In this document: one piece after another, positions 40,101 through 43,100 of the stretch
How the letters are laid out: each line of letters starts with the position of its first letter
Position numbering within the stretch: position 1 is the stretch's first letter
From: an uncultured Trueperaceae bacterium
GTDB taxonomy: Bacteria; Deinococcota; Deinococci; Deinococcales; Trueperaceae
NCBI GenBank assembly: GCA_963727505.1
Contig: CAVSGP010000004.1
Span: forward strand, 128,001-192,000
Length of the DNA: 64,000 nt
Direction: 5' to 3'
Program-made: the position numbers

Positions 40101-43100
40101 CTCCTCGATGCTGAAAGGCTTGACCAGGTAATCGTCCGCCCCCGAGTCGAGCCCGGTGACCTTGTCGTCCACCGAGTCCTTGGCCGTGAGGATGATGATC
40201 GGCGTGTTGCTCGTCTTACGGATGCGGCGCGCCACTTCCAGGCCGTCCAGCACCGGCAACATCAGGTCGAGCACCACCAGATCGGGGTTGAGCTCACGGA
40301 ACTTCGAGAGACCGGTGACCCCGTCGTACGTGACAACGGTGTCGTAGCTCTCGGCCTGGAGCTCCAGGTCGATGAACTTCGCGATCTCCTTTTCGTCTTC
40401 AACGATCAGGATGAGGGGTCTGCGCTCCATGAAGGGCATTATGCCGCCCGTTCTCATGAGAGTCTTGATGAGCGCGACGTTCCCGGCGCGACGCGGCCTA
40501 CCCGGACGCCGTTCCGTGCTCCTGCAATGGGATGGTCTCCTGCACGATGATCGCCGTCTGGAGCACGCTTTCTGCCCACGCCTGCGCGCCCGGGAGCGAG
40601 TGGTCGCGCCAGTTGCCGCAGGTCTTCTCGCTGCATCCCGGGATGGGACCGTCGTGGCGGGTCACGTCCAGCAGCGCGGCCTCGAAGGCAACGCGGACCT
40701 GTTCGATGTCCGGCTCGCCCATGACCGTGAGGTAGAAGCCGGTGCGACATCCCATCGGGCTGGCGTCCACGATGGTGGCCGCCAGACGGTCGCGCAGGTA
40801 GCCCGCCAGCAGGTGCTCCATGGTGTGCAACGCGGCGGTCGGGACCTCGGCGCGGTTGGGTTGCACCAGGCGCAGGTCGAACTTCGAGACCACGTCGCCG
40901 TGCGGTCCTTGATAGTGGCCCGCGTGGCGCACGTACGGTGCGCGGACCCGGGTGTGGTCGAGGTCGAAACTGGCGACTCGGGTGACGGGTTCCATGCCGG
41001 CAGTATACGGGCCGCCCGCCCCGAGAGAACGGGCGCGGAACGGCCCCTAGCCAGAAAAGGCACCGCCGGTTACACTGGTCCCCGGCCCGACATCGGCAAG
41101 GCAGCGGCCTGGACACAACTATGAGCACGCGATACGCACGGGGACGGAATCAGGGAGGCCGACGCAGCGCCAGCGTCGCGGCGGGGACCGACGAGCCCTA
41201 CCGCATCACGCCGACCGACGAGCGCGTCGCCATCTTCATCGACGGCAGCAACCTCTACAACGGCATGCGCGAGAACCTGCAGAACACGCGGGTCAACATG
41301 GCGGAGTTCATCGAGCAGCTCCGTCGCGAACGCCCGCTGTTCCGCACCTACTACTACAACGCCACCCTCACCGACGACTACGACGAGGACCTGCGCGACG
41401 GCCAGCAGCGCTTCTTCGAGTCGCTGCGGCGCATCCCCTACGTCACCGTGCGGCTCGGACGCCTGCACCGCAGGCAGGACGGCTCGCTGGTCGAGAAGGG
41501 GATCGACGTGGCGCTGGCCGTGGAAGCACTGGCGCTCGCCTACCAGGACGCCTACGACTCCGCCCTGCTGGTCTCTGGCGACGGCGACTACGTGGAGCTG
41601 GTCGAGGGCATCAAGCGCACCGGCAAGCACGTGGAGTGCGCCATGTTCAAGAACCAGTCGGCCGGCATCCTGCTCGAGTACGTGGACATCTTCCAACCGC
41701 TCGACGACCTCGACTGGTCCCACATCCTGTTCTGACCGCGAGCCCGCCGCACCCTTTCGTCGACTCCAGGGCTGACCGCCCGAGGGCGGGCTCGCGCCGC
41801 GTCTAGCTCCGCAGGCGGTCGACCACCGGCTCGAGCCCGCGGGCCTCGTCGATGAAGAGCTGCAGGTGCGGGAACGGGATCTGGATGCCCGCCCCGTCCA
41901 GGGCCTCCTTGGCGCCCTCGACCAGGCCGGAGCTCACCACCGGCTCGACGGCGATCGTCTCCGGCCCGATCCAGGCGAGCATCACCAGGTTCACCGACGA
42001 CGATCCCAATTCCTCCACCAGCACCGACGGCGCGTGCATGGCGTCCTGCAGCACCTGCGGGTGCTGCCGCAGCACCGGCATCAGCGCCTCGCGCGCGGCC
42101 CGCGCCGACTCCTTGTAGGCGATCCCCACCGGCACGCGCAGACGTAGTGGCCCGCCGGCTGACAGGTTGACGATCTCCGCCGACGCTACCTTGGCGTTGG
42201 GGATGGAGCTGTGCACGTTGTCGCGTGACACCACGCGGGTGGTGCGGAGACTGATGCGCTCGACCCGCCCCACCTTCCCGGCGAGCTCGACCCAGTCCCC
42301 GATCCGGAAGGGGCGCTCGATGAGCAGCGTGACGCCCGAGATGAAGTTCGACAGCGTGTCCTGCGCCGCGAACCCCACCGCGATCCCGACGACGCCCAGG
42401 GCGGTGATGACCCCCAGCACGTCGACGCCGAACTGGTCCATGACGGTGACCACCGCCAGGGCGGCAACGACCACGCCCACCACGTTGCGCAGGAGTTGCA
42501 CCAGAGAGCGGTCGAGCCCCGCGCGGGCGGTGGCGTTGGACAGCAACCGGTGCGTCATCAGCCAGGCCGCGTAGTAGACGAGCGCGAACAGCGCCGCGGT
42601 GGCGACGCGGCCGAGCACCGCGGTGGCGACGCCGAACTGCGCCAGCACCGCCAGCGACGCCAGCAGCGTGACGGCGTAGGCGAGCGCGCGCTGCAGCATC
42701 CTCACCAGGTCGGAGGGCACGCGCAGGCGCCGTCCCGCCACCTCGAACACGCGCGTCACGATGGCGTAGGCCGCCCCGAACAGCACCAGCAGCAACAGCG
42801 CCACGATCAGCCGGGTGGCGAGCGTGGCCAGCGCGCCTCCGCTGGCGACGCCCTGCGGCCCGAAGGGGCCGAGCGCCCGCAGCAGGCTCTGCCGAAGTTG
42901 CTCCCACACGCTGGCCAGGAAACCGCCGGCCCCGCTCACGCGGCCGCTCCGGTCGTGCTCGGCGGTCGGCCCCGGCACCGACAGCGCCGCGCCTTCGACC
43001 CCGTGACCCGGCCTCCGATCGGCGAGGTCAGCGCGCCTGTCAACGTCTGCGTCATGACGTTCCCCTCCTCGCCGCGAGTATACGGGCGCGCCGAGGACCC

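What a model noticed while it worked through the whole genome (the two positions that open the first line are those of the whole stretch)
41121..42939. The only DNA ligase gene has left the chromosome: empty ligA site here, ligA beside a Rep3-parAB origin (chromid) in kin [...]
None of the 15 contigs holds ligA, pncB or the housekeeping nadE, and the ancestral ligA site next to g00553 is empty (67 bp to g00554). In relatives ligA-polX sits beside a Rep3 initiator, with a second parAB and nadE-pncB on the same contigs. The lineage has moved its sole DNA ligase to a chromid, which this bin and other long-contig bins lack.
Evidence so far: ligA absent here by HMM and tblastn, present in 56 of 61 family genomes; the 5 without include a single-contig 98% genome. 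G048 and G024 have ligA close to the g00551-g00553 block; G006, G007 and G049 have g00553 directly next to g00554. Rep3_N/Rep3_C beside ligA in G006, G007 and G017; second parAB at the ligA locus in G006, G007, G017, G049. nadE and pncB on the same contigs in G006 and G007. At most 9% of each of 10 pieces of these contigs matches this genome at 60% identity or more.
(Added by a program. Inside this text positions count along the whole contig: contig position 128,001 is position 1 of the stretch shown here. "Call 12" and the like, gene names such as g00115 and contig names such as C1 are that model's own, and its searches are not shown. The text may have been shortened before it was handed on; [...] marks where a part breaks off. 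The agent that wrote the report below was given it as the finding of a first reader that could run no searches.)

Follow-up and report, generated by a model that had tools for sequence, protein, structure and literature searches.

The report
Foreign DNA ligase on essential mini-replicon
In a group of uncultured soil and sediment bacteria the chromosome has lost its gene for the enzyme that seals DNA during copying, and relatives carry a foreign replacement on a small plasmid-like circle, which would make that circle indispensable.

Summary
Core observation confirmed, mechanism and site corrected. G000 has no ligA, no remnant and no ATP-dependent ligase. In nine genera of its family the one ligA sits with polX beside parB-parA-parS-iterons-Rep3. 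Two such contigs close into circles of 73.9 and 64.1 kb, with GC-skew minima at that origin. A closed 2.92-Mb chromosome of the group lacks any ligase. But the gene was not moved. The replicon LigA is 38-45% identical to native Deinococcota LigA and 53-59% to Gemmatimonadota/Acidobacteriota LigA, and a single family clade is rejected (AU p=0.00013). Best reading: a Rep3 plasmid carried a foreign ligA-polX, the native genes were lost, and the plasmid has since been inherited with the chromosome (ParAB tree matches host groups). The empty site lies upstream of mscS (42979-43135), not in the 67-bp gap. nadE is weak support. G000's own replicon is not in the bin and is inferred. Nearest known case: sole rRNA operons on Rep_3 plasmids.

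The parts
36804..40995 (.). Conserved chromosomal block that marks the ancestral ligA neighbourhood: purM-like gene (+), sensor kinase (-), response regulator (-), luxS (-)
   Evidence: Gene calls; LuxS Pfam; same order in relatives. The purM, kinase and regulator names are my reading of the translations, not scanned.
41121..41735 (+).
   Evidence: PF01936 E 2e-25; found in 117 of 121 family genomes
41736..41802 (.). 67-bp gap between convergent NYN and mscS; not the ligA site
   Evidence: G020, G104 and G114 keep NYN-mscS adjacent with ligA intact upstream of mscS
41803..42978 (-). MscS mechanosensitive channel (g00554); ancestrally directly downstream of ligA
   Evidence: PF00924; ligA overlaps or abuts mscS in G091, G104, G114, G020. 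The start codon may lie near 42939.
42979..43135 (.). True empty site: native ligA and the divergent BMP lipoprotein gene are both gone; no remnant
   Evidence: Synteny; tblastn with 10 LigAs and 2 BMPs gives only scattered short hits, best E 0.004 over 21 residues
43136..43548 (+). RNase P RNA (rnpB), right border of the empty site
   Evidence: RF00010, 252.5 bits
43895..44323 (+). mraZ-like gene, start of the cell-wall/division cluster; conserved right anchor
   Evidence: Gene call and synteny; name from my reading of the translation

Best explanation
A Rep3 iteron plasmid with its own parABS came to carry a foreign ligA-polX cassette of a type also found in Gemmatimonadota. With two LigAs in the cell, the native ligA (between mscS and BMP) was deleted, and the native polX as well. 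The replicon then held the only NAD-dependent ligase, needed to seal Okazaki fragments on the chromosome, so it could no longer be lost and has been inherited with the chromosome across nine genera. It replicates bidirectionally from the origin between rep and parA and also carries lexA-imuB-dnaE2, a second polA and rarA. G000 has this replicon in life; the bin dropped it. SHOWN: empty site, no ligase in G000 or closed G011, two closed circles, origin anatomy, foreign ancestry, host-congruent trees. INFERRED: G000's own replicon, essentiality, order of events, single origin, direction of transfer.
For: No ligase in G000. G011: one 2,919,400-bp contig, 100-bp terminal overlap, 1284-aa ORF across the join; no LigA, ATP ligase, polX or Rep orthologue. 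G008:C10: 55-bp overlap found only at the ends, 607-aa ORF across the join. G061:C9: 48-bp overlap, gene order across the join as in G008. Skew minima at 13,554 and 56,698, each within about 1 kb of the rep start and 0.2 kb of the parA start. Iteron-like motif 8-14 times on the rep strand in 7 of 7 origins, in 21-22-bp steps, against 0.9 per kb in G000. 16-bp palindrome in 12 of 13 replicon contigs and 0 in G000 at <=2 mismatches. Of 58 genomes in these genera: 46 have ligA and Rep, 8 neither, 2+2 one only; same contig in 34 of 46. LigA tree and AU p=0.00013. ligA-polX also adjacent in Gemmatimonadota-titled loci. Rep and ParAB trees recover every host genus with 2 or more rows; ParAB gives the three RpoB groups. 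Four runs holding this window also hold contigs over G106's polX-ligA-rep-parAB, at 81-86% identity in run X3, against 85.8% chromosomal identity G000-G106.
Against: G000's replicon is not assembled; the run contigs are from mixed communities, are not linked to G000 and leave the origin nearly uncovered. Only 2 of 19 Rep-bearing contigs tested close. Both closed circles are in one genus, and G008 and G061 also have an accessory ATP-dependent ligase on another contig, so 'sole ligase' holds strictly for genus g1 (0 of 10 with PF01068) and G011. G026 has the same ligA-polX 92 kb from NYN on a chromosomal contig and no Rep orthologue, so the cassette can be chromosomal. The best RpoB trees split the replicon genera into two or three groups (monophyly not rejected, p=0.29). 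Trees are quick single-gene trees. Copy number and essentiality are untested.
Confidence: 0.82

Rival explanations
1. The ancestral chromosomal ligA was translocated to a chromid.
For: Empty ancestral site and a single ligA on the replicon.
Against: Replicon LigA is 38-45% identical to native family, Thermaceae-like and Deinococcus-like LigAs but 53-59% to other phyla. The native LigAs form their own clade (support 100) and family monophyly is rejected, p=0.00013. polX also falls into two score classes, one copy per replicon-type genome.
Confidence: 0.03
2. In G000 the foreign ligA-polX segment (or the whole replicon) is integrated in the chromosome and lies in an assembly gap.
For: G000 has 15 contigs; G026 has ligA-polX on a chromosomal contig; G036 has a distant Rep homologue in its single contig.
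Against: All 6 same-genus genomes with ligA have it on the Rep contig. Four of ten g1 genomes lack ligA, polX and Rep together. 6 of 9 high-completeness genomes with <=40 contigs lack ligA against 2 of 24 fragmented ones (counted by hand), the reverse of what gaps give. G011 is closed.
Confidence: 0.09
3. These organisms truly live without LigA or any known DNA ligase; the circle is dispensable.
For: 8 of 77 genomes >=90% complete have no ligA, including a closed chromosome.
Against: All 8 belong to genera whose other members carry ligA on the replicon; ligA, polX and Rep go missing together; losses are scattered among sister species (G106 has it, sister G068 not). LigA essentiality is recalled knowledge. 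Runs holding the window hold the locus.
Confidence: 0.03
4. The circles are plasmids of other community members, mis-binned by composition.
For: Foreign-looking LigA; metagenome bins.
Against: One Rep orthologue per genome in 48 bins; Rep, ParAB and LigA trees follow host genera; no native ligA in those bins.
Confidence: 0.03

Closest known systems
Sole rRNA operons on Rep_3 plasmids (Aureimonas, Persicobacteraceae and others; PMC10645730, passages read)
   Same: An essential function held only on a Rep_3 replicon, chromosomal copy lost, kept over long evolutionary time; the older cases carry partition systems.
   Different: Here the gene is the replicative DNA ligase, and it is a foreign gene that displaced the native one; the paper's model has the host's own operon translocated. 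Closed circles are 64-74 kb with a DNA-repair gene set; phylum Deinococcota ('Deinococc' has 0 occurrences in that paper's main text).
Chromids (definition of Harrison et al. 2010 as quoted in PMC12456017, passages read)
   Same: Plasmid-type replication and partition, a core gene that is chromosomal in relatives, GC close to the host, conserved across genera.
   Different: Closed members are far smaller than typical chromids; the core gene is a xenolog; 'ligase' and 'Trueper' have 0 occurrences in that survey's main text (supplementary tables not read).
Redundancy-then-loss route to essential plasmids (PMC8628078, passages read) and xenologous gene displacement in Deinococcus-Thermus (PMC1274311, passages read)
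   Same: A plasmid copy of a core gene makes the chromosomal copy dispensable; loss of the latter fixes the plasmid. Displacement by foreign orthologues is known in this phylum.
   Different: Neither text names ligA as a case. Here intermediate states are visible: native plus a second polX-ligA in G104, G114, G075; chromosomal foreign copies in G017, G021, G026.
Thermus pTT27 and Deinococcus DR177/DR412 secondary replicons (PMC1274311)
   Same: Same phylum; long-lived secondary replicons with DNA-repair genes.
   Different: In sampled Deinococcus-like genomes with a second ligA on a smaller contig (G172, G178, G160) it is an extra copy of the native clade and a first copy remains. No close homologue of this Rep is in PLSDB (best about 25-29%).

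Membership tests
Chromid | Plasmid-type replication and partition system | tested here: met
   Rep3_N/Rep3_C, ParA, ParB; iteron array and palindrome; skew minimum at this origin in two closed circles
Chromid | Carries a core gene that is chromosomal in other species | tested here: met
   Only ligA of the genome; chromosomal beside NYN/BMP in other genera. It is a foreign orthologue, not the native gene.
Chromid | Nucleotide composition close to the chromosome | tested here: inconclusive
   GC within 1.3 points in 5 of 8 genomes, 2.6-2.8 points higher in 3; GC3 lower in all 8; chromosomal samples were only 3.6-20 kb, mostly rpoB loci
Chromid | Conserved and vertically inherited across a clade | tested here: met
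   Rep orthologue in 48 of 58 genomes of nine genera (none in the single g11 genome); trees follow host genera
Chromid | Experimentally essential; copy number near one | not testable with these tools
   No isolate or depth ratio available here
Rep_3 iteron replicon | Rep3 initiator with phased direct repeats upstream | tested here: met
   PF01051 and PF21205 above cut-off in 4 of 4 scanned; repeats in 21-22-bp steps 100-420 bp upstream of rep
Rep_3 iteron replicon | AT-rich unwinding element and DnaA boxes; Rep binding to the repeats | not tested
   Not searched; binding needs an experiment
NAD-dependent DNA ligase LigA | Full domain set and KxDG adenylation motif | tested here: met
   TIGR00575 729 bits against cut-off 444; adenylation, OB, HhH, BRCT; EPK(I/L)DG in 8 of 8 replicon LigAs checked
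Xenologous gene displacement | Resident gene groups with a distant lineage and the native orthologue is lost | tested here: met
   empty native site in 16 genomes examined including G000
Translocated native gene | Replicon copy nests among native family orthologues | tested here: not met
   AU p=0.00013
Conjugative plasmid | Relaxase and mating-pair genes | tested here: not met
   None among 55 of the 60 G008 circle proteins scanned with NCBIfam (best five families shown per protein); only weak, below-cut-off TraD/TraF hits on a HerA-like ATPase and a signal peptidase

The most novel reading that the evidence does not exclude
A 64-74-kb Rep3 circle made itself obligatory by supplying a foreign replicative DNA ligase, so that chromosome replication in at least nine genera depends on a plasmid-type replicon that works as a DNA-maintenance mini-chromid (ligA, polX, second polA, dnaE2-imuB-lexA, rarA). 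With the rRNA plasmids this would point to Rep3 replicons as recurrent captors of core functions, and ligA-polX cassettes as repeat displacers of native ligA in this family (also G017, G021).
Probability: 0.65. Interest if true: 0.85.

Novelty: new variant of a known kind. Interest (0 to 1): 0.76.

Why it matters
It is a clear natural case of how a plasmid becomes essential: acquisition of a foreign core gene, a redundant stage still visible in sister genera, loss of the native copy, then inheritance across genera. The gene concerned seals the chromosome's own Okazaki fragments, and the closed replicons are only 64-74 kb. It also shows that genomes rated 97-98% complete, even a closed one, can lack an essential replicon, and it suggests a screen: closed genomes without ligA mark hidden chromids.

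Tried and rejected
Replacement by an ATP-dependent ligase: PF01068 in 0 of 10 g1 genomes and not in G010 or G011; PF14743 and PF04679 not in G000, G011, G068, G010. The weak PF01653 hit in G000 lies in a GTPase ORF. nadE as support: rejected as patchy. Closure of G024:C18 (215.5 kb), G040:C42 (157 kb) and 15 other Rep contigs: no terminal overlap; skew in G040 and G063 did not point clearly to the origin, in G024 the minimum lay 10-15 kb from it. PLSDB holds no close Rep or LigA relative. The metagenome scan gave 40 Rep loci, 10 with ligA within the flank; contig ends were not tested. Low cover over the origin in the four runs is not evidence either way. Earlier findings of the scan: three look-ups, nothing. 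Seven literature searches listed no paper on a sole ligA on a secondary replicon or on Trueperaceae chromids; the library lacks most subscription papers and I saw only listings for most hits. A genome-wide GC comparison of circle and chromosome in G008 and G061 was not done, so that chromid criterion stays open.

Full report
1. The window. It is G000:C4:128001-192000 of a 3.26-Mb, 15-contig, 97%-complete genome. The control-free evidence for its identity is indirect: named records whose LigA is 60-76% identical to that of same-genus genomes are titled Trueperaceae or Deinococci. Around the finding the order is luxS(-), NYN(+) 41121-41735, 67 bp, mscS(-) 41803-42978, 157 bp, RNase P RNA 43136-43548, mraZ.

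2. No ligase in G000. PF01653 gives one 16.6-bit hit inside a GTPase ORF; PF03120, PF01068, PF14743 and PF04679 give none; ten LigA queries and an HMM of 123 LigAs find only a helix-hairpin-helix motif. polX, SRAP, Rep, imuB, surE, pncB and the radical SAM gene of the relatives' replicon also have no hit. ligA is in 109 of 121 family genomes and 69 of 77 that are >=90% complete.

3. The empty site is one gene further on. G020 (single contig), G091, G104 and G114 read NYN> <mscS <ligA BMP>; ligA head-to-head with BMP is also seen in Deinococcus-like G156. G010, G024, G017 and G021 keep mscS and BMP with no ligA between them. G000, G068, G095, G101 and G106 have lost BMP too. So the scar is at 42979-43135, with no remnant.

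4. Where ligA is. In same-genus genomes the locus reads parB, parA, 1.2-2.2 kb non-coding, rep (Rep3_N and Rep3_C), SRAP, ligA, polX, with bcp and lexA-imuB-dnaE2 beyond parB. A Rep orthologue of 64-100% identity is single-copy in genera g1, g6, g9, g12, g20, g25, g29 and g34; g11 (one genome, no ligA) groups with them by RpoB. Of these 58 genomes 46 have ligA and Rep, 8 neither, 2 only ligA, 2 only Rep; the two share a contig in 34 of 46 (typed). By hand, none of them has ligA on the NYN contig. All 8 high-completeness genomes without ligA are in these genera; 6 of 9 with <=40 contigs lack it against 2 of 24 more fragmented ones (by hand). I defined the group partly by Rep, and kin are not independent, so I give no p-value.

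5. It is a separate circle. G011 is one 2,919,400-bp contig with a 100-bp terminal overlap and a 1284-aa ORF across the join; it has no LigA, ATP ligase, polX or Rep. G008:C10 has a 55-bp overlap found only at its ends and a 607-aa ORF across the join: a 73,937-bp circle. G061:C9 has a 48-bp overlap in non-coding DNA, with dnaE2 and lexA meeting across it as in G008: 64,054 bp. Seventeen other Rep contigs, up to 215.5 kb, did not close, so size varies. The G008 circle holds LigA, PolX, a second PolA, DnaE2, ImuB, LexA, RarA, SurE, HU, a tyrosine recombinase and a RES/Xre pair, and no relaxase among 55 of 60 proteins scanned. G008's native site is empty and its one ligA is on the circle. Against a strict 'sole ligase' reading: G008 and G061 have an ATP-dependent ligase elsewhere; genus g1 has none in 10.

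6. Origin. Upstream of rep, 7 of 7 origins carry a GGGAA-N5/6-GGNACC-like motif 8-14 times on the rep strand, with runs in 21-22-bp steps; background in G000 is 0.9 per kb (the pattern was derived from these regions). The palindrome GCCATAACGTTATGGC occurs twice between rep and parA in 12 of 13 replicon contigs (G080:C2 ends before it) and not in G000; parS is my inference. Strand-corrected third-position GC skew has its minimum at 13,554 in G008 (parA starts 13,629, rep 14,612) and 56,698 in G061 (parA 56,532, rep 55,723), with maxima 41 and 27 kb away. The site shuffle (0 of 300) overstates significance; the coincidence of position in both circles is the evidence. Open contigs were less clear.

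7. Not moved, replaced. G106's LigA is 59-80% identical to other replicon LigAs, 53-59% to LigAs from records titled Gemmatimonadota, Acidobacteriota and Anaerolineae, and 38-45% to the family's chromosomal LigAs and those of the other three families of the phylum. Trees of 123 and 50 rows put native LigAs of all four families in one clade (100) and the replicon LigAs with those other phyla (100); holding family LigAs together costs 367 log units, AU p=0.00013 (the group was chosen after seeing the first tree). polX lies directly behind ligA in nine Gemmatimonadota-titled loci too, and family polX falls into two score classes. The outside sequences came from a pattern search biased toward the query, so the donor is not fixed; foreignness relative to the native clade is.

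8. Inheritance. Rep and ParA+ParB trees recover every host genus with two or more rows; ParAB gives (g1,g25), (g20,g29) and ((g12,g34),(g6,g9)), as RpoB does. Best RpoB trees do not join these three groups, but joining them is not rejected (p=0.29): one origin is allowed, not shown. Other states: G104, G114 and G075 keep native ligA plus a second polX-ligA of another foreign type; G017 and G021 have empty native sites and related foreign ligA-polX; G026 has the replicon-type cassette, with neighbours seen on g20/g29 replicons, 92 kb from NYN on a chromosomal contig, most simply a reintegration (inferred).

9. G000's own replicon. Four runs of two studies hold 69-78% of the window's words. Laid on G106's locus at 80% likeness, all four cover polX, ligA, rep, parA and parB; in X3 long pieces at depth 13-18 are 81-86% identical, against 85.8% between G000 and G106 at this chromosomal block. 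This fits but does not link the contigs to G000; one run may be its source.

10. Known cases. [quoted passage not shown] PMC8628078 (passages): loss of the chromosomal copy of a redundant core gene makes a plasmid essential. PMC12456017 (passages): chromid definition, Deinococcota listed, no mention of ligase; its supplementary tables were not read and may bear on novelty. PMC1274311 (passages): displacement and megaplasmids in Thermus and Deinococcus. PMC12282955 (passages): nothing relevant. Seven searches listed no report of a sole ligA on a secondary replicon. That LigA is essential for replication is recalled, not tested.

11. Verdict. Real, and stronger than first reported, with a different mechanism. 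It works like a chromid and meets three tested chromid criteria; composition is inconclusive and essentiality untested. New variant of a known kind; confidence 0.82; interest 0.76.

Noticed in passing
G008:C10 37337-40114; G024:C18 111606-114347; G040:C42 82146-84923: The replicon carries a second, 913-925-aa DNA polymerase I with a 3'-5' exonuclease domain, only 46% identical to the chromosomal PolA; ancestry not tested.
   Followed up: partly
L193 (G104:C13), L194, L195: Genus g10 keeps native ligA and has a second polX-ligA of a different foreign clade on the chromosome: a living redundant stage.
   Followed up: partly
L197/L406 (G017), L198/L407 (G021): Probably independent replacements of native ligA by related foreign ligA-polX, with empty native sites and no Rep orthologue.
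   Followed up: partly
G026:C96 (L196, L318-L320): Replicon-type ligA-polX and its neighbours on the same contig as the NYN block; possible reintegration into the chromosome.
   Followed up: partly
Family-wide; G020, G030, G036: Single-contig genomes with no NAD synthetase match at E<=1e-10; the route to NAD in these genomes is unexplained.
   Followed up: no
G000:C10 91729-92663: NadE-like gene in two frames, beside an acyl carrier protein and an AMP-binding enzyme in a polysaccharide cluster; not the housekeeping type.
   Followed up: partly
L111 (G036:C1 1290830-1292179): A 38%-identical Rep homologue followed by bcp, as on the replicon, inside a single-contig genome that keeps native ligA; possible relic of a related plasmid.
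   Followed up: no
L308 (G178:C2), L309 (G172:C5), L321 (G160:C93): Deinococcus-like genomes with a second, native-clade ligA on smaller contigs, one near a parAB pair.
   Followed up: partly
L053 5078-5654 (G024:C18 origin): Several arrays of 14-bp tandem repeats expand this origin region to 3.8 kb.
   Followed up: no
window 3748-10453 and 20277-23578: Non-core genes (PAS-domain protein, AraC/glyoxalase/UvrA-like set, integrase-like gene) interrupt the housekeeping block between dnaE and hisS-aspS; names from my reading of the translations.
   Followed up: no
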